DNA of 64,000 nucleotides from Escherichia phage ECO340P1. The notes below the pieces were generated by a model. It had not been told where the DNA came from, did not search any database, and was given only the letters and a program-made list of their open reading frames with translations. The position numbers and the translations under genes were made by a program. This document shows, piece by piece, positions 398-48,080 of the stretch (its first letter is position 1; each line of letters starts with the position of its first letter). Where the stretch lies: sequence record OP172791. The stretch is one strand, 5' to 3'.

Positions 398-748
398 ATG
401 AGTAATTTTGATGAAATTCAAGAACTTGTTTGGGATTTATCTGGTGATGTGGATTACATTTCAGATTATCTTTCAAAAGTTTACCCTGGGGTAAGCGTTA
501 TGATTGTGACCAAAGATCCAATTAATTTGCCTCCTAATGTTGTAGCTTGTTGTGGAAGTGGTTCAGGAGAAGTAGAGCCTGTATCTCGTTGGGAATTAAC
601 TAAAGCTGTTTCAAAACGAAACGGTGAAGTTTTGAATATTGATATTGAGCAAATATGGACTTCTCCAGCAGCCAAATGGAATGATCCAAATGGTTGGGAT
701 TTGTTCTTCTGGGATAATGAGACTGATGATGAGGTGTTTTTAAAATGA
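398..748 (+). CDS. hypothetical protein
   Basis: 116-aa ORF with ATG start directly after the terminator; no recognisable motif. Confidence 0.5.
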   Translation: MSNFDEIQELVWDLSGDVDYISDYLSKVYPGVSVMIVTKDPINLPPNVVACCGSGSGEVEPVSRWELTKAVSKRNGEVLNIDIEQIWTSPAAKWNDPNGWDLFFWDNETDDEVFLK

Positions 749-990
749 AATACTTGTTGGTTGTGTTTGAAAATATCTGTTTTGCAATAGGGTTGTTTGT
801 TGTAATTTTTGTATTGACAAGCGTAATCAACGGCAGTAAAGTGAGTTTATACCGAGATGGAGAGCAACTTTATTGCTTCTCTGGAGATTTCAAACACAGA
901 TGTATTAATAGCCAAAACGAGGAAAGCAAATATGAAAAAACTAGCCCTGATTTTAATTGGTTGTATCTTTTTAACAGCTTGCGAGGATGA
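745..990 (+). CDS. hypothetical small membrane protein
   Basis: 81-aa ORF with hydrophobic N-terminus; overlaps the lipoprotein start at 932 by 59 nt, so uncertain. Confidence 0.3.
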   Translation: MKYLLVVFENICFAIGLFVVIFVLTSVINGSKVSLYRDGEQLYCFSGDFKHRCINSQNEESKYEKTSPDFNWLYLFNSLRG

Positions 991-43380: not shown

Positions 43381-45366
43381 TTAACCACCAGTGTTAGATT
43401 GTCCACTTAGAGTTGAAAGAGATAAACGTTGGAAAATGCTATTTCCGCTATTTTGAATTCTTGCATCAAGAATATTTCCAAACTCTGAAGAAGGGCTGAT
43501 CGTAACTTTGATAAGATCACTTGGTATTGCTACCGTATTCTCAACAACAGGTTGATTACGAGCCAAACTTACATTAGGTGTATATGCCGACTGACGTAAA
43601 TCTTCCAAAGGGTTTCCGAAACCGAAGGTTTGTGATCTGGTTTCTTCTCCTCTTATAGCACGACCAACATCTCGTGTATCTAAACCAGTGGCATTAAATA
43701 TCCAATCTGCTATAGTATTTGGTATTATTTGAGATGCGTCATTCACCTTATCTAATATAGATTTGTTAGGATCTGAATTTTTACCAAAAGTATCAGGGAA
43801 AGTTTCTTTTAACCAGTTATTAAAAGATCCAAAACCATCTCCTAATTCTTTAGCAAACCCTGTAAGCTGGACAGTTGTCTTACCAAGTTCTTCACCTAAA
43901 TTTTTGGCGAACTGATCTAACACTTTAACGTTATCCAACCAACCATCATCTTTAGGTAAAGCTTTTACAAAACCTTCTAAGAAATGGTTCTGCATACCTT
44001 GACCTACAAGTTGAACTGTTGCAGCAAAACGAGTAAACTCTTTAGAAGCGTCTATTTGTTCTTGAGTTAATGTTGCACCTGTTCTTTGAAGCATTTTCAA
44101 TGTTTCATTGTATCCTTCGCCGTTTTTACTAAACATTCGTTGGTAGTGCATAAGGTCGTCACCAAGGTTTTCAAGAAGTCGCCCGATTTGAGCAGAGTTC
44201 ATACCTCGACGCTCACCTTCATTAACAGTAGCCTGAATAAAAGCTAAAGGATCGTTCTGTAAAGGTTTAAGTTGTTCTGGATTCCATCCAAACAAGTTCA
44301 TAATGTCATTTATGCCATTATCACCGCCTTTCCACTTCCCTTCTTTCTCATTCCATTTTGAGGCTAAAACTGTATTACCAAGACGTTCACGAACGTCTTT
44401 AATATTATCTATTGACTTAATAATATTTGCAGAGTCTACACCGTTCTGTTCACCCCAAGCTGTCATCGTTAAAATAGAGTTGGCGTTTGTCTGAACGTTT
44501 TCAGCGCCACGGCTTACAAGTTTAATTCTTTCGTTAGTATTCATCAAAGTGTTACCAACTACAGAACCACCTGCAAACAGCCCAGCACCTATTAAAGAGG
44601 ATGCAATCATGCGTGGATTAAGACCTGCTGCACCTTCTTTTAATTGTCCATATCGACGATCACGATCACGTTTTTGTTGAGCTAATTCACGCTTACGGTT
44701 GCGTTCTATATCTCTAAGTTCACGATTTCGCATACGTATACGCATTTTAGCTTCTGCTTCTAGCTCTCTACGAATACGGCGACGACCGCGAACCTCGTCT
44801 TCTATTTCAGCATTCTTTTCACGATGAGATCTGCGTAAGGCATCTAACTGGTGAGCAAGAGCTTGGTTCATACGTTGAAGAGTTATTTCACCCTTTTTGT
44901 ATTGCTCTACAGCTTTACCCATAACGTCTCTAGCTTCTTGCATAGCGCCAGGACTAGCTTTACTAAATGCTCTTGCTCGATAGTTAAAGTTCTGCAAACG
45001 AAGATTACCTAAATCTTCCCTACGTGCTGCTGCTTTAGCTTCGCGTTCAGCAGCTTTACGAGCTTTTTCTTCTTCTCTTCCTTGCGGGGTTTTAGGAGTT
45101 CTAGGTCTACCAGATCCGCCTACAGGAGCACCCGCTCCAGCGGGAGTAGGTGCTCGCATAGGTTTTTGACTTTGAGTTTGAGCTTTCTTAAGTTCACGCT
45201 CAATCTCTTTCATTTGTTGTCTAAACTTGGTCATGTTCATAGTGGGTTGCATTTTATTTGCAAACTTCTGAACACTCAACACGGCATCTTTTGCTTCCTT
45301 GAGACTGTTCTTGTCCACCTTAAACGTAACCACGTTACTAATTTTGGAGGCGTTAATTTCTAACAA
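43381..45366 (-). CDS. tail tape measure protein
   Basis: 661 aa; Arg/Glu-rich coiled-coil N-terminal half, Gly-rich hydrophobic segment GAGLFAGGSVVG, located downstream of the chaperone pair. Confidence 0.7.
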   Translation of the reverse strand: MLEINASKISNVVTFKVDKNSLKEAKDAVLSVQKFANKMQPTMNMTKFRQQMKEIERELKKAQTQSQKPMRAPTPAGAGAPVGGSGRPRTPKTPQGREEEKARKAAEREAKAAARREDLGNLRLQNFNYRARAFSKASPGAMQEARDVMGKAVEQYKKGEITLQRMNQALAHQLDALRRSHREKNAEIEDEVRGRRRIRRELEAEAKMRIRMRNRELRDIERNRKRELAQQKRDRDRRYGQLKEGAAGLNPRMIASSLIGAGLFAGGSVVGNTLMNTNERIKLVSRGAENVQTNANSILTMTAWGEQNGVDSANIIKSIDNIKDVRERLGNTVLASKWNEKEGKWKGGDNGINDIMNLFGWNPEQLKPLQNDPLAFIQATVNEGERRGMNSAQIGRLLENLGDDLMHYQRMFSKNGEGYNETLKMLQRTGATLTQEQIDASKEFTRFAATVQLVGQGMQNHFLEGFVKALPKDDGWLDNVKVLDQFAKNLGEELGKTTVQLTGFAKELGDGFGSFNNWLKETFPDTFGKNSDPNKSILDKVNDASQIIPNTIADWIFNATGLDTRDVGRAIRGEETRSQTFGFGNPLEDLRQSAYTPNVSLARNQPVVENTVAIPSDLIKVTISPSSEFGNILDARIQNSGNSIFQRLSLSTLSGQSNTGG

Positions 45367-45386
45367 AGTATGTTCCTCGTGTTGGA

Positions 45387-46135
45387 TTAAACAAGTTTCT
45401 TAAACAAATCTGACATTTTATTTGTCTGGTTTTGATGTTTTCTCTTTATTGAAGTGTCTTTAACATACATGGCTTCAACATACTCTTCGTATGTTAAATA
45501 CTCATATAGTTTTAAAAGATAATCTACACCGTAGTTATCCAATGTTTTCAGTGTTTCCGAGGTATCTTTAACGACTTTGCAAAGAATAACCTCATACCAC
45601 TTCAAAGTAAGGGTTTTCGTTGCTATGTCGATAGCATGTTCAATCGCAGGTGTTAATTTGCTGCTAAACTCGTCATCGCCTGAAGCTGTGTGAACAGTTT
45701 TCCGAAACCTCGTTTGAAAAAAGGGCCGTAGTTTACCTCCAGAACTTTAGCAGTAAGATCTAACACTAGTTCTGGGTGAGCCATAAATAATTCATCAAAA
45801 TTTTCTGCAACGTTATAACCGTCTTGAGTATAAACCTCATCTAAAATTTTACGCAAAAAGACAGTTAAATTCTTTTCTTCCAAACCTGCAAAAAGTTGGA
45901 TCAATGCCATAGCAATACGTGACTCAAGGTCTTCGTCTGCGGACATTGTTGCTGTGCTATACATAGTCATAGGAACAACCAGAACACTACCTAATTCTGG
46001 AATCCTGTCAAACACTTTAGATGGACTCCACTTCATAATACGGAAAGTAACAGATCTGTTTCCATCTAACGGAATCTCAACTACTTCTTCTGGTCGAGCA
46101 TATTTTTGAATTGTGTTATCTTGTTCTTGTGACAT
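45387..46135 (-). CDS. tail assembly chaperone GT-like fusion via programmed -1 frameshift
   Basis: Slippery heptamer T_TTT_TTC in the 0 frame; the -1 frame is open from the slip site to the stop at 45387 and includes the 72-aa ORF-track product. Confidence 0.5.
45653..46135 (-). CDS. tail assembly chaperone (G-like, 0-frame product)
   Basis: 160-aa ORF between tube and tape measure; ends 48 nt before the -1 frame ORF. Confidence 0.6.
   Translation of the reverse strand: MSQEQDNTIQKYARPEEVVEIPLDGNRSVTFRIMKWSPSKVFDRIPELGSVLVVPMTMYSTATMSADEDLESRIAMALIQLFAGLEEKNLTVFLRKILDEVYTQDGYNVAENFDELFMAHPELVLDLTAKVLEVNYGPFFKRGFGKLFTQLQAMTSLAAN
45716..45722 (-). other. -1 ribosomal frameshift slippery site (T_TTT_TTC)
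   Basis: Codons CCT TTT TTC (P F F) of the G-like ORF form a canonical X_XXY_YYZ heptamer. Confidence 0.5.
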
Positions 46136-46150
46136 ATTTTCCTCTCTAAT

Positions 46151-46174
46151 GATAAAAAGGGCATTTCTGCCCTT
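46151..46174 (-). terminator. Rho-independent terminator after the tail tube gene
   Basis: Minus-strand GGGCAG-aaa-TGCCC hairpin followed by TTTTTATCATT. Confidence 0.6.
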
Positions 46175-46180
46175 TATTTA

Positions 46181-46660
46181 TTATTGAATTGTCAGAGCAG
46201 AGATTGAGTTAAGGGTGCTCAAACCTACACCAACTTCATTACGCAGAAGGCTTGCATCTTTAAGACCAATAACCCATTGGTTCTCTGTAATCATTTCGCC
46301 AATAGTATCTTCAGGCTGACTTTGAATCCATCCAATCGTGCTAATGTAATAGCCACGTGGGTCTTCTAAATAAACACTGAACGCTACTTGACGAGTAGAA
46401 TACATTGTTTGTGCATATGTTGCAAGTACTTCGTTAGCTGGAGATGTGCGTTGCAAAGACATTGTGAGTGTTCCCAAACGGTTACGACTCAAAGCTAGTG
46501 AAACGTCGCCATCAGTCCCTGCATAAGGGTTGATAATATCGTTAGATTTAGCAATAACGATTTTAGTATCAGCCGCAAAACCCCACGGTTCCCAACCACC
46601 TAATGAAAGGATAACTTGAGATGGGTCGTAGGCCATTACGCCAGTAAGCATTTTATCCAT
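46181..46660 (-). CDS. tail tube protein
   Basis: 159-aa ORF directly downstream of the sheath gene. Confidence 0.55.
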   Translation of the reverse strand: MDKMLTGVMAYDPSQVILSLGGWEPWGFAADTKIVIAKSNDIINPYAGTDGDVSLALSRNRLGTLTMSLQRTSPANEVLATYAQTMYSTRQVAFSVYLEDPRGYYISTIGWIQSQPEDTIGEMITENQWVIGLKDASLLRNEVGVGLSTLNSISALTIQ

Positions 46661-46706
46661 TATAGATCCTCTTTATTTTGATAACGGGGGCTTAACCCCC
46701 GCCGTA

Positions 46707-48080
46707 TTAGTTTGCAGTACGGTTAGTCAGGACGTTGACCTGAACTTTAACGTAATGGAAGAAGCCAGCGTAAACATATTCAATCTTCATCCCATCTACC
46801 AGACGAGCATTGATTTGCGCATCAGTCATATCGGCACGAGAAGGAATATAAACAATAGGTTTCAGATCGACACGCAAACCAGTCTCTTCAGAAGTAACAA
46901 CTTCATTAGCGATGGAACCGTTGAGGATACCTACTTGGATCGGGTTAGCCAGAACAGCTTGTCGAATCAAAGCCAGACCGTTTGAAGTAGCACGAACACC
47001 ACCACCCAGCATAGACTGTTGTTTAAACAGTGTAAACAGTGATTCTTCTGTGCGAGCTTTAAACCACAAAGCATGAACAACATAGTCAACAAAGAAACCG
47101 CTAACCATCAATCCATCACGATAGAACAGAGTTCCGTGCTCTTTACGATAGATGTTGCCGTTCTGTTGAACAATATTGTTTTCCGAAGTCTGATCCAGTT
47201 TCTCGATCTCTACACCTACCAGTGTTTTACCGTGAAGAGTAGTTAAACCAGGTTGACGAGAACAGATTGCACCAACAACTGCTGCTTCTGGGAATACAGA
47301 ATCTGCATCGGTCATCCACAAAGCAAAGCAAGTGTTATTATAACCGAGGTCATTCAGTCGTTCCAGAACGTTATCTTCTGCTTTCGTTTTAATTCCAGGT
47401 TCAGAGCTAGAGAAGAAGTAAACTTTATCATTCTCTTCTACCCATGCAGCCAAAGCTAGAACATCTTCTGTTTCATGGGAATCTGAAAGGGTCCAGAACC
47501 AGCTACTATCGATATCATGCAGAGCAGCAATATCTTCCGTAATAGCATTAGCATAGACAGTTTCTTGAGTGAAACCTGTGCTGTCAATAGAACCAAACTT
47601 ACCTTCTACTGGAGTGAAAGTCATTGCAGCGCCGTTGTTAGCTACTGTAAACAGTGGGCCATAAACAAGATCTGCATTGATCATTTCAGTCAGACCAACT
47701 ACAATCTCTTGTGCAGTTGCAGTGTCATCAGCAATGAATTTAAATTCTTTTTTCTTGGTACCATTTTTGATGGTAATTGTGTAAGTTGCACTATCTTCTA
47801 CGATTGGAGTTAGAGTAAAGTTTGTAACTTCACGCTTACCAACCATGACTTGATCTGGTGGGAACAAACCGTTAAACAGTTTGACTGCCATAATATACGC
47901 TGGATCATTTAATCCATAACCTGCTTCCAAAAGTGCATCGGAAGAAGAGTAATATTGAATCGCTTCGCCAGTTACGTTCTGACCTGTAAGGATCAGGGGA
48001 ATATCGAACTGGGTTTCACGAATTGATGTAGCACCATACAGTAAAGTTACGGTTGCTACCTTTTCACGAAAAGTTGCCAT
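46707..48080 (-). CDS. tail sheath protein
   Basis: 457 aa; contractile-sheath-like composition and position upstream of tube, chaperone and tape measure. Confidence 0.65.
   Translation of the reverse strand: MATFREKVATVTLLYGATSIRETQFDIPLILTGQNVTGEAIQYYSSSDALLEAGYGLNDPAYIMAVKLFNGLFPPDQVMVGKREVTNFTLTPIVEDSATYTITIKNGTKKKEFKFIADDTATAQEIVVGLTEMINADLVYGPLFTVANNGAAMTFTPVEGKFGSIDSTGFTQETVYANAITEDIAALHDIDSSWFWTLSDSHETEDVLALAAWVEENDKVYFFSSSEPGIKTKAEDNVLERLNDLGYNNTCFALWMTDADSVFPEAAVVGAICSRQPGLTTLHGKTLVGVEIEKLDQTSENNIVQQNGNIYRKEHGTLFYRDGLMVSGFFVDYVVHALWFKARTEESLFTLFKQQSMLGGGVRATSNGLALIRQAVLANPIQVGILNGSIANEVVTSEETGLRVDLKPIVYIPSRADMTDAQINARLVDGMKIEYVYAGFFHYVKVQVNVLTNRTAN

What the first reader, a model, noticed from the sequence alone, without database searches (positions are those of the whole stretch)
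45387..46135. Programmed -1 frameshift producing a G/GT-type tail assembly chaperone pair upstream of the tape measure gene
The 160-aa chaperone-position ORF contains CCT TTT TTC, giving the slippery heptamer T_TTT_TTC at 45716-45722 (minus strand). The -1 frame is open from that site through the 72-aa ORF to the stop at 45387, so a slip yields a fusion of about 250 aa. This matches the conserved chaperone frameshift found before tape measure genes in long-tailed phages.
Basis: partly seen in the sequence, partly recalled or inferred. Interest (0 to 1): 0.55.

Follow-up and report, generated by a model that had tools for sequence, protein, structure and literature searches.

The report
Tail chaperone frameshift site, phAPEC8-like phage
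This is the usual "slip back one base" signal that lets a long-tailed phage make a short and a long tail-assembly chaperone from one gene; it is almost certainly real and public records of this phage group do not annotate it, but it is an ordinary example of a well-known mechanism.

Summary
On the minus strand, the 160-aa ORF (45653-46135) is a Pfam Phage_TAC_15 tail assembly chaperone. It lies between the tube gene and the tape measure gene of a phAPEC8-like myophage (Phapecoctavirus, about 97.5% identity). It contains an in-phase T_TTT_TTC at 45722-45716, overlapped by C_CCT_TTT at 45725-45719. The -1 frame is open from 45746 to the stop at 45387, so a slip gives a 249-aa (28.8 kDa) fusion.

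Comparative evidence strongly supports a programmed -1 ribosomal frameshift:
- More than 40 relatives, down to about 25-30% identity, keep an in-phase slippery site and a -1 ORF running 206-296 nt past the chaperone stop.
- Three distant relatives use different sites (G_GGA_AAG, A_AAT_TTT, G_GTT_TTT).
- The -1 ORF has no conserved start codon or ribosome-binding site.
- Substitutions upstream of its annotated TTG start fall mainly on third codon positions of the -1 frame.

No downstream RNA structure was found. A strong Shine-Dalgarno-like GGAGGU lies 12-13 nt upstream but is not conserved in all relatives.

None of 30 public records viewed annotates the join. The same mechanism was described in 2025 for sister families. 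No protein-level evidence exists. Verdict: a new member of a known kind, of low interest.

The parts
45653..46135 (-). Zero-frame tail assembly chaperone gene ('G', TAC-N), 160 aa, 18.2 kDa. It has a GAGG ribosome-binding site at 46144-46141.
   Evidence: ORF list. Pfam PF21822 Phage_TAC_15, E = 1.3e-23, 84.3 bits against a cut-off of 22. phrog_3840 tail assembly chaperone, E = 2.8e-55. Molecular weight.
45716..45725 (-). Slippery run CCCTTTTTTC. It holds two overlapping in-phase heptamers, C_CCT_TTT (45725-45719) and T_TTT_TTC (45722-45716). A slip at either gives ...NYGPFF|QTRFRK...
   Evidence: Sequence and frames. T_TTT_TTC is kept in phase in all Stephanstirmvirinae, Vequintavirinae, Plateaulakevirus and Mooglevirus loci examined.
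45387..45716 (-). The part of the long form (GT, TAC-NC) encoded in the -1 frame: 109 codons plus the stop at 45389-45387. It has a variable acidic/Ser-Gly linker (overlapping the 3' end of G, 45653-45716) followed by a conserved T domain of about 75 aa.
   Evidence: Translation. phrog_16039 and phrog_10409. T-domain homologs in relatives. Purifying selection in this frame beyond the G stop.
45387..45605 (-). The 72-aa ORF that public records call a 'hypothetical protein' (TTG start, no Shine-Dalgarno sequence). It is read here as the C-terminal part of GT, not as a separate gene.
   Evidence: annotations. There is no SD motif upstream of the TTG and no conserved start in relatives. Coding-type substitution continues upstream of the TTG.
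45735..45740 (-). Internal Shine-Dalgarno-like GGAGGT (codons Leu-Glu-Val), 12-13 nt upstream of T_TTT_TTC and 9-10 nt upstream of C_CCT_TTT. It is a candidate 5' stimulator of the -1 shift. This role is inferred.
   Evidence: The duplex with the 16S 3' end is -10.6 kcal/mol, in the top 0.1% of 10-mers on this strand. The spacing that stimulates -1 shifts is 9-14 nt (PMC5009743). It is not conserved in all relatives.
43381..45366 (-). Tape measure protein gene, 661 aa. It has a TTG start with a GAGGA ribosome-binding site and begins 20 nt after the GT stop.
   Evidence: phrog_16051 tail length tape measure protein, 1187 bits. Annotations of phAPEC8.
46181..46660 (-). Tail tube gene, 159 aa, directly upstream of the chaperone gene.
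   Evidence: Pfam PF11681 KPP10_Orf10. phrog_280. Annotated as 'tail tube' or 'virion structural protein' in relatives.
46707..48080 (-). Tail sheath gene, 457 aa.
   Evidence: Pfam DUF3383. phrog_205 tail sheath, E = 2.9e-100.
46156..46175 (-). Terminator-like hairpin with a T-tract, between the tube gene and the chaperone gene. It probably lowers transcription of the chaperone and tape measure genes relative to sheath and tube.
   Evidence: 8-bp stem followed by TTATCATT. Annotated as a terminator at the same place in phAPEC8 and FBKp34.

Best explanation
The locus is the tail assembly chaperone gene of a phAPEC8-like myophage, decoded in two ways.

Most ribosomes read the zero frame and make the 160-aa chaperone (G, or TAC-N). 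A minority slip back one nucleotide when tRNA-Phe (with tRNA-Pro or tRNA-Phe in the P site) sits on CCC-UUU-UUU-C at 45725-45716. They then read the -1 frame to the stop at 45387. This gives a 249-aa protein (GT, or TAC-NC) that shares the first 140 residues with G and carries a linker plus a T domain of about 75 aa.

By analogy with lambda gpG/gpGT and P2 gpE/gpE+E', the G part coats the tape measure protein. The rare T domain recruits the tube protein, so that the tube (and then the sheath) polymerises to the length set by the tape measure. Neither form should end up in the virion.

Shown here: the frames, the in-phase heptamers, homology of G to chaperones, conservation of the arrangement, absence of an independent start, and coding-type selection in the -1 frame.

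Inferred: that ribosomes actually shift, the efficiency (a few per cent in the lambda and P2 precedents), the binding partners, and a stimulatory role for the upstream GGAGGU.
For: 1. Anatomy. An in-phase T_TTT_TTC overlaps C_CCT_TTT. The -1 frame is closed until 45749-45747 and then open for 119 codons to 45387, which ends 20 nt before the tape measure start.

2. Identity. G matches PF21822 Phage_TAC_15 at 84 bits, and the gene order is sheath, tube, chaperone, tape measure.

3. Conservation.
- 16 GenBank loci and 33 IMG/VR loci were examined. They cover Phapecoctavirus, Justusliebigvirus, other Stephanstirmvirinae and five Vequintavirinae genera.
- All keep in-phase T_TTT_TTC and a -1 ORF of 108-141 codons running 206-278 nt (242-278 nt in complete loci) beyond the G stop. 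The 206-nt value is locus L044, whose contig ends inside the -1 ORF.
- The predicted fusions are 244-258 aa, although G identity falls to about 30%.
- Aeromonas 4L372D and Shigella Sf14 keep the same heptamer.

4. Different slip sites in distant relatives.
- Rheinheimera Barba1A has lost the T-run and carries lambda's G_GGA_AAG in phase, starting 9 nt downstream of the equivalent position.
- Vibrio S4-7 has A_AAT_TTT.
- Pakpunavirus PaoP5 has the T7-like G_GTT_TTT.
- This pattern is the signature of tandem tRNA slippage.

5. Synonymous sites inside the heptamer never vary, while flanking synonymous sites do.

6. No conserved start for the -1 ORF. In Hena1, KB57, L026, L030 and L034 the first possible start leaves only 41-45 of about 105-125 codons. 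In the window the only candidate is a TTG with no SD. The phi92 record marks ribosome-binding sites for the chaperone and tape measure genes but none for the small ORF.

7. Selection.
- Between the G stop and the annotated TTG, differences by -1-frame codon position are for example 2/4/12, 4/3/11 and 4/2/9.
- There, pS is about 0.75 against pN about 0.25.
- In the overlap the zero frame is the constrained one, and the -1 frame there is a variable linker.

8. Precedents. Lambda G/GT, with wide conservation in long-tailed phages (PMC5009743). P2 E/E+E' at TTTTTTG without a downstream hairpin (PMC3091744). A conserved -1 frameshift with a GTTTTT motif in the chaperone genes of the related Vandenendeviridae and Andersonviridae (PMC12846349).

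9. This is as expected for non-virion chaperones.
Against: - There is no protein, ribosome-profiling or reporter evidence for this phage or any close relative. None was found in the literature searched.
- No downstream stimulatory RNA structure was found. Folding z-scores were +0.4 to +1.0 for the window; alifold gave no consensus; the small GGUUU...RRRCC hairpin has no compensatory changes; Rfam gave nothing. Pseudoknots were not tested.
- The upstream SD-like element is strong in the window but weak or absent in KP13-16, KB57, the Certrevirus members (CB7, CR9), UPEC06 and 4L372D. It is also confounded with the Leu-Glu-Val codons.
- No natural in-frame G-T fusion was found. All 41 hits to the fusion are 158-175 aa and cover only G. 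All genuine hits to the T part are 55-107 aa.
- U_UUU_UUC is not among the most shift-prone heptamers in E. coli.
- Across the wider supergroup the T-run is conserved in two different phases. This leaves a little room for a mechanism that depends on the run itself.
Confidence: 0.87

Rival explanations
1. Transcriptional slippage rather than ribosomal slippage. RNA polymerase adds one extra U on the T6 run, so a subset of mRNAs encodes G-T in a single frame and is translated normally.
For: - The element conserved across four or five families is a T5-T6 run preceded by G or C (PMC12846349).
- Its phase relative to the zero frame differs between Vequintavirinae/Stephanstirmvirinae (T_TTT_TTC) and Pakpunavirus or Ab15 (G_GTT_TTT, T_GTT_TTT).
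- A 2022 paper, cited in PMC12846349, argues for a non-translational mechanism for T4-like chaperones. Only its title was seen; the paper itself is not held.
- No downstream RNA stimulator was found.
Against: - Efficient slippage by bacterial RNA polymerase is described for runs of about 9 A or T (PMC5009743). This run has 6.
- Barba1A has replaced the run by an in-phase G_GGA_AAG and S4-7 by A_AAT_TTT. Neither has a long homopolymer.
- Both phases of the T-run match heptamers with experimental precedent for ribosomal -1 shifts in E. coli: P2 TTTTTTG and T7 G_GUU_UUC.
Confidence: 0.06
2. Two separate genes. The 72-aa ORF (45387-45605) is translated on its own from its TTG, as public annotations imply, and there is no fusion.
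For: - Most GenBank records annotate a small 'hypothetical protein' here.
- Small ORF products are present in protein databases and in PHROGs (phrog_16039).
Against: - There is no SD upstream of the TTG.
- Start codons are at inconsistent positions, or missing, in relatives.
- Several records leave the region unannotated.
- Protein-level conservation and third-position substitution bias extend upstream of the TTG as far as the G stop.
- The -1 frame is open back to the heptamer in every relative, which an independent gene would not require.
Confidence: 0.04
3. Chance or relic. The heptamer and the open -1 frame have no function, and only the 160-aa chaperone matters.
For: In-phase heptamers are common: 82 in this window. 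About 0.4 per window would be followed by at least 109 open codons by chance.
Against: - The arrangement is conserved in more than 40 loci whose synonymous sites are saturated.
- There is purifying selection on the T domain.
- The synonymous positions within the heptamer are invariant.
- Distant relatives have replaced the site with other canonical heptamers.
Confidence: 0.02

Closest known systems
Phage lambda gpG / gpGT (Levin, Hendrix & Casjens 1993; Xu, Hendrix & Duda 2004, 2013, 2014), as summarised in PMC5009743
   Same: - Two overlapping ORFs lie between the major tail protein gene and the tape measure gene.
[quoted passage not shown]
- The long form shares its N-terminus with the short form and adds a T domain.
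- No strong downstream RNA structure is needed.
- One distant relative of this window's gene (Rheinheimera Barba1A) uses lambda's own heptamer G_GGA_AAG.
   Different: - The heptamer is T_TTT_TTC/C_CCT_TTT, not G_GGA_AAG.
- The host phage is a roughly 150-kb contractile-tailed phage, so a sheath gene is present as well.
- The chaperone belongs to a different Pfam family (PF21822).
- The G:GT ratio and binding partners are untested here.
Phage P2 gpE / gpE+E' (Christie et al. 2002), as described in PMC3091744
   Same: - It is a myophage, with the chaperone pair lying next to the tape measure gene.
- The slip occurs on a T6 run (TTTTTTG in P2, TTTTTTC here).
- There is no downstream hairpin.
   Different: - P2's proteins are much smaller (91 and 142 aa against 160 and 249 aa).
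- The window's G gave no hit to a P2 gpE family in the Pfam scan.
- The last base of the heptamer differs, so the A-site tRNA is Phe here rather than Leu.
- There is a candidate upstream SD-like stimulator here.
TAC-N / TAC-NC -1 frameshift with a GTTTTT motif in Vandenendeviridae (Pakpunavirus) and Andersonviridae (Felix O1/Moogle group), PMC12846349 (Dec 2025)
   Same: - The virion module is evolutionarily related: DUF3383 sheath, KPP10_Orf10 tube, chaperone, tape measure.
- The same T-run lies at the homologous N[YF]G-x-FF position.
- The same problem of a 'hypothetical protein' or an unannotated gap occurs in public records.
- I confirmed T_TTT_TTC in Sf14 and G_GTT_TTT in PaoP5.
   Different: - That paper analysed the chaperone locus only in Vandenendeviridae and Andersonviridae, not in Stephanstirmvirinae or Vequintavirinae.
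- In Stephanstirmvirinae the base before the run is C, not G (CCCTTTTTTC), which creates a second overlapping heptamer.
Phage T7 gene 10A/10B -1 frameshift (G_GUU_UUC; Condron et al. 1991), cited in PMC5009743
   Same: E. coli ribosomes shift -1 with tRNA-Phe moving from UUC to UUU in the A site.
   Different: - It is a capsid gene, not a tail chaperone.
- The P-site codon is GUU.
- T7 needs a distant 3' element.
- The two genes are not homologous.
E. coli dnaX -1 frameshift
   Same: An internal Shine-Dalgarno sequence 9-14 nt 5' of the slippery site stimulates -1 shifting (PMC5009743). The window has GGAGGU at that distance.
   Different: - dnaX also needs a strong 3' stem-loop and uses A_AAA_AAG at about 50% efficiency.
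- No 3' structure was found here.
- The SD-like element is not conserved across relatives.

Membership tests
G/GT-type tail assembly chaperone pair made by a programmed -1 frameshift (Xu, Hendrix & Duda 2004) | Two overlapping ORFs located between the major tail (tube) protein gene and the tape measure gene | tested here: met
   The order on the minus strand is sheath 46707-48080, tube 46181-46660, G 45653-46135, -1 ORF to 45387, tape measure 43381-45366.
G/GT-type tail assembly chaperone pair made by a programmed -1 frameshift (Xu, Hendrix & Duda 2004) | The upstream ORF is a tail assembly chaperone | tested here: met
   PF21822 Phage_TAC_15 at 84.3 bits (cut-off 22). phrog_3840 at E = 2.8e-55. 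No solved-structure relative by sequence.
G/GT-type tail assembly chaperone pair made by a programmed -1 frameshift (Xu, Hendrix & Duda 2004) | A slippery heptamer X_XXY_YYZ in the zero-frame phase, near the 3' end of G and inside the zone where the -1 frame is open | tested here: met
   T_TTT_TTC at 45722-45716 and C_CCT_TTT at 45725-45719. The -1 frame is open from 45746. These are the only in-phase heptamers in the overlap.
G/GT-type tail assembly chaperone pair made by a programmed -1 frameshift (Xu, Hendrix & Duda 2004) | The second ORF has no translation start of its own | tested here: met
   The window has only a TTG without an SD. There is no conserved start in 35 distinct relatives. 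Coding-type selection extends upstream of the TTG.
G/GT-type tail assembly chaperone pair made by a programmed -1 frameshift (Xu, Hendrix & Duda 2004) | The arrangement is conserved in relatives despite sequence divergence, with different slippery sequences in some | tested here: met
   T_TTT_TTC occurs in most relatives; G_GGA_AAG, A_AAT_TTT and G_GTT_TTT occur in distant ones.
G/GT-type tail assembly chaperone pair made by a programmed -1 frameshift (Xu, Hendrix & Duda 2004) | Both proteins are made, with the long form a small fixed fraction of the short form | not testable with these tools
   This needs a western blot, mass spectrometry, ribosome profiling or a reporter assay.
G/GT-type tail assembly chaperone pair made by a programmed -1 frameshift (Xu, Hendrix & Duda 2004) | G binds the tape measure protein, T binds the tube protein, and both are required for tail assembly but absent from virions | not testable with these tools
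   There is only an indirect hint. In the CB7 record, sheath, tube and tape measure are marked 'MS/MS confirmed', but the chaperone and the small ORF are not.
SD-plus-stem-loop stimulated -1 frameshift of the dnaX/IS type | An internal Shine-Dalgarno sequence 9-14 nt upstream of the shift site | tested here: inconclusive
   It is present and strong in the window (GGAGGU, -10.6 kcal/mol, 9-13 nt spacing). It is weak or absent in several relatives and is confounded with the Leu-Glu-Val codons.
SD-plus-stem-loop stimulated -1 frameshift of the dnaX/IS type | A stable stem-loop or pseudoknot 5-9 nt downstream of the shift site | tested here: not met
   Folding z-scores are +0.40 to +0.82 for the window and -0.84 to +0.98 for three relatives. 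There is no alifold consensus. The mini-hairpin has no changes on both sides. There is no Rfam hit. Pseudoknots were not assessed.

The most novel reading that the evidence does not exclude
The conserved signal in this whole supergroup of myophages (Stephanstirmvirinae, Vequintavirinae, Andersonviridae, Vandenendeviridae, Saclayvirus-like phages) may be the U-run itself, not an in-phase tandem-slippage heptamer. The run occurs in two phases, and in Ab15 as a non-canonical T_GTT_TTT. The long chaperone would then be made by a run-dependent mechanism. That could be transcriptional slippage, or single-tRNA-Phe P-site slippage helped by an upstream SD-like element. This would be in line with the proposal that T4-like chaperones do not use classical frameshifting.
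Probability: 0.1. Interest if true: 0.5.

Novelty: new member of a known kind. Interest (0 to 1): 0.2.

Why it matters
The value is mainly in annotation.

- About 130 Stephanstirmvirinae genomes and more than 200 Vequintavirinae genomes are in public collections. Many are candidates for phage therapy against E. coli, Klebsiella and Salmonella.
- These records list the chaperone's long form as a stray 'hypothetical protein', or leave a gap of about 290 nt.
- Marking the -1 join would correct these records.
- It would also give a defined 28.8-kDa product to look for in tail-assembly studies of these large myophages.
- It extends the recently described conserved T-run frameshift of the Felix O1 and PAK_P1 groups to two further subfamilies.

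It does not change what is understood about frameshifting or tail assembly.

Tried and rejected
1. Downstream RNA stimulator. Single-sequence folds of 60, 80 and 120 nt after the heptamer, and of three relatives, were no more stable than shuffles. RNAalifold on 20 diverse sequences gave no structure. A small GGUUU-NNN-RRRCC hairpin seen by eye 8-9 nt downstream pairs in 82% of cells. However, it has zero compensatory changes, does equally well when slid by one column, and is explained by the conserved Gly-Phe-Gly (zero frame) and Arg-Phe-Arg (-1 frame) codons. Rejected as evidence.

2. Rfam scan of 45200-46300. It gave only sub-threshold sRNA noise near the terminator.

3. 'Rosetta stone' test for natural in-frame G-T fusions. 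There were none among 41 hits to the fusion or 14 hits to the T part in 1.84 billion representatives. One 3956-aa hit is a repetitive acidic protein and is spurious.

4. AlphaFold2 of the T part as a single sequence gave pLDDT 46, which is uninformative, so no fold search was run.

5. An unbiased wider survey of slip sites with the search for related loci failed. Both a T-domain alignment and an N-terminal G alignment were too divergent to give a search pattern. The one successful scan used a pattern overlapping the NYGxFF motif, so it is biased at the amino-acid level, though not at synonymous sites.

6. The other long -1 candidate in the window (TTTAAAA at 739, 81 codons) is just the next gene's ATG overlapping a stop.

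7. The Vladimirov et al. 2022 paper on T4-like chaperones is not held in the library.
Full report
**What the window is.** A megablast of 43381-48080 finds 63 phage genomes that cover most of the query at 95-99% identity. All are phAPEC8-like Escherichia myophages of about 150 kb (genus Phapecoctavirus, subfamily Stephanstirmvirinae). The genes on the minus strand run in this order:
- tail sheath, 46707-48080 (DUF3383, phrog_205);
- tail tube, 46181-46660 (PF11681, phrog_280);
- a terminator-like hairpin, 46175-46156;
- the 160-aa ORF, 45653-46135;
- the 72-aa ORF, 45387-45605;
- the tape measure gene, 43381-45366 (phrog_16051).

The 160-aa protein matches Pfam PF21822 (Phage_TAC_15, tail assembly chaperone) at 84 bits against a cut-off of 22. 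It also matches phrog_3840 at E = 2.8e-55.

**Checking the observation.**
- The chaperone codons read ...AAC TAC GGC CCT TTT TTC AAA CGA... (N Y G P F F K R).
- C_CCT_TTT at 45725-45719 is a second in-phase heptamer that overlaps the first. A slip at either one gives the same product.
- The -1 frame has a stop at 45749-45747 and is then open for 119 codons to the stop at 45389-45387. That stop lies 20 nt before the tape measure start.
- The +1 frame closes after 7 codons.
- The fusion is 140 + 109 = 249 aa, 28.8 kDa, against 18.2 kDa for the short form.

**Chance.**
- Within the window, 82 in-phase heptamers occur in ORFs of at least 100 aa.
- These two rank first for -1 open length. The runner-up, at position 739, is only the next gene's start.
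- From a random position the -1 frame stays open for a median of 6 codons. Only 0.44% of positions reach 109 codons.
- On this sequence alone the evidence is therefore modest. Position and conservation carry the argument.

**Conservation.** I collected the homologous locus from three sources:
- 16 GenBank phages chosen across the range of chaperone identity (100% down to 24-30%);
- 33 IMG/VR contigs;
- six more distant phages found through the rV5 chaperone or the tube protein.

The findings were as follows.
- Every Stephanstirmvirinae and Vequintavirinae locus keeps T_TTT_TTC in phase at the motif N-Y-G-(P/C)-F-F. This covers rV5, PVP-SE1-like SSE121, Hena1, KB57, CB7, PBES02, CR9, UPEC06 and 18-1-2.
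- In each of these loci the -1 frame opens only 3-15 codons upstream of the heptamer and runs 242-278 nt beyond the chaperone stop. Locus L044 shows only 206 nt because its contig ends inside the -1 ORF.
- The predicted fusions are 244-258 aa.
- Aeromonas phage 4L372D (Plateaulakevirus) and Shigella phage Sf14 (Mooglevirus, Andersonviridae) have the same heptamer.
- Inside the heptamer the synonymous positions never vary: the third base of the Pro/Cys/Ser codon is always T, the first Phe is always TTT and the second is always TTC. Neighbouring synonymous sites vary freely (AAC/AAT, TAC/TAT, GGC/GGA/GGT).

**Different slip sites in distant relatives.**
- Rheinheimera phage Barba1A has lost the T-run (…TGT CTA ACT TCG GGA AAG…). 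It carries G_GGA_AAG, lambda's own heptamer, in phase and starting 9 nt downstream.
- Vibrio phage S4-7 has A_AAT_TTT.
- Pakpunavirus PaoP5 has G_GTT_TTT, the phage T7 gene 10 type.
- All three keep a homologous T domain in the -1 frame.

Replacement of one canonical slippery site by another, with the same direction of shift, is what Xu, Hendrix and Duda (2004) used to define this class. It argues for tRNA slippage on the ribosome. Acinetobacter phage Ab15 has a non-canonical T_GTT_TTT, with the -1 frame opening exactly at the run.

**The small ORF is not an independent gene.**
- In the window the only start codon ahead of the conserved T domain is a TTG with no Shine-Dalgarno motif.
- Across 35 distinct relatives the first usable start lies at inconsistent positions.
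- In Hena1, KB57, L026, L030 and L034 the first start would leave only 41-45 of about 105-125 codons.
- Annotators reflect this. Some call a 'hypothetical protein' of 43-122 aa and others leave about 290 nt empty.
- The phi92 record marks ribosome-binding sites for the chaperone and tape measure genes but not for the small ORF.

A Nei-Gojobori comparison of the window with nine Stephanstirmvirinae relatives gave three results.
- In the 16 codons between the chaperone stop and the TTG, differences concentrate on the third position of the -1 frame (2/4/12, 4/3/11, 4/2/9). There, pS is about 0.75 and pN about 0.25.
- The same pattern holds in the rest of the T region.
- In the 21-codon overlap, differences fall on the zero frame's third position. 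There the chaperone's C-terminus is the constrained reading, and the -1 frame is a variable Ser/Gly/Asp-rich linker.

**Stimulators.**
- No downstream structure was found. Minimum free energies of 60-120 nt after the heptamer are no better than shuffles (z = +0.40 to +0.82 for the window; -0.84 to +0.98 in three relatives).
- RNAalifold gives no consensus on 20 sequences.
- A small hairpin seen by eye has no compensatory changes.
- Rfam gives nothing. Pseudoknots were not assessed.
- Absence of a downstream structure is normal for this class. P2 and P2-like phages also lack a hairpin (PMC3091744).

Upstream, the Leu-Glu-Val codons CTG GAG GTA form GGAGGU at 45740-45735.
- It lies 12-13 nt before T_TTT_TTC and 9-10 nt before C_CCT_TTT. 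The range reported to stimulate -1 shifts is 9-14 nt (PMC5009743).
- Its duplex with the 16S 3' end is -10.6 kcal/mol, in the top 0.1% of 10-mers on this strand.
- GAG is the minority Glu codon in this genome, at 27%.
- However, the element weakens to between -2.2 and -3.8 kcal/mol in KP13-16, KB57, CB7, UPEC06 and 4L372D (-5.6 in CR9).
- I therefore treat it as a possible lineage-specific enhancer, not as part of the conserved signal.

**What is known.**
- The lambda G/GT paradigm and its wide conservation in long-tailed phages are reviewed in PMC5009743.
- P2 makes E and E+E' by a -1 shift at TTTTTTG.
- A paper of December 2025 (PMC12846349) argues for the same conserved -1 frameshift, with an invariant GTTTTT motif, in the chaperone genes of Vandenendeviridae and Andersonviridae. 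It notes the same mis-annotation.
- That paper relates these families to Vequintavirinae and Stephanstirmvirinae through other proteins, but it did not analyse their chaperone locus.
- I found no paper reporting the frameshift for phAPEC8-like or rV5-like phages. The rV5 genome and proteome paper does not mention it.
- None of the 30 records I opened carries a joined CDS.
- The feature is therefore an unannotated but fully expected member of a known class.

**Rivals.**
- Transcriptional slippage on the T6 run cannot be excluded for this phage. The T-run occurs in two phases across the wider supergroup, and a 2022 study of T4-like chaperones, of which only the title was seen, proposes a non-translational route.
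- Against this, the run is short. The two relatives without a long run keep in-phase heptamers. Both phases of the run match heptamers with experimental precedent for ribosomal shifts in E. coli.
- Independent translation of the 72-aa ORF and pure chance are both contradicted by the selection and conservation data.

**What failed.**
- No natural in-frame fusion was found.
- AlphaFold2 on the T part alone was uninformative.
- Two attempts at an unbiased wider scan failed.

**Verdict.** My confidence in a programmed -1 ribosomal frameshift producing G and GT is about 0.87. It is a new member of a known kind, and the interest is low (0.2). The value lies mainly in correcting the annotation of several hundred genomes of therapeutic-candidate phages.

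Noticed in passing
window 46156-46175 (-): A terminator-like hairpin (AAAGGGCAGAAATGCCCTTT followed by a T-tract) lies between the tube gene and the chaperone gene. It is annotated as a terminator at the same place in phAPEC8 and FBKp34. It would set transcription of the chaperone and tape measure genes below that of sheath and tube.
   Followed up: partly
window 45735-45740 (-): A strong internal Shine-Dalgarno-like GGAGGT lies 9-13 nt upstream of the slippery run. Its anti-SD duplex is -10.6 kcal/mol, in the top 0.1% of the strand. It is present in many relatives but not all.
   Followed up: yes
protein P0044; compare locus L026 1593-1925: A database protein begins MALFQTRFRK... This can only be read if its source contig has T5 instead of T6 in the slippery run. 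That points either to a homopolymer sequencing error or to real length variation of the run. The source contig was not examined.
   Followed up: no
window 398-990 (+): An in-phase TTTAAAA at 739 is followed by 81 open -1 codons. This is simply the next gene (745-990), whose ATG overlaps the stop of ORF 398-748. It is not a recoding site.
   Followed up: yes
L012 2300-3370 (Pectobacterium phage CB7); L055 1832-2470 (Rheinheimera phage Barba1A): Some relatives have extra genes inserted between the T ORF and the tape measure gene. CB7 has two ORFs, one of them 316 aa. Barba1A has a reverse-strand 'putative DNA binding protein'. These may be mobile insertions.
   Followed up: no
(hit tables): Records named Campylobacter phage (for example C11, A13b, B15) and Acinetobacter phage vB_AbaM_ABPW7 are 97-100% identical to E. 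coli phAPEC8-like or rV5-like phages at this locus. This suggests mislabelled hosts or contaminating coliphages in those submissions.
   Followed up: no
L060 2411-3991 (Pseudomonas phage PaoP5); L061 1623-3391 (Acinetobacter phage Ab15): These relatives carry two or three tube-like 'virion structural protein' genes in tandem before the chaperone gene. This is the tube-gene triplication described in PMC12846349. The window has a single tube gene.
   Followed up: no
L002 3329-5203 compared with L001 4215-6203: Public records disagree on the tape measure start. phAPEC8 uses the TTG that corresponds to window 45366. WPEC4 starts 114 nt further downstream.
   Followed up: no
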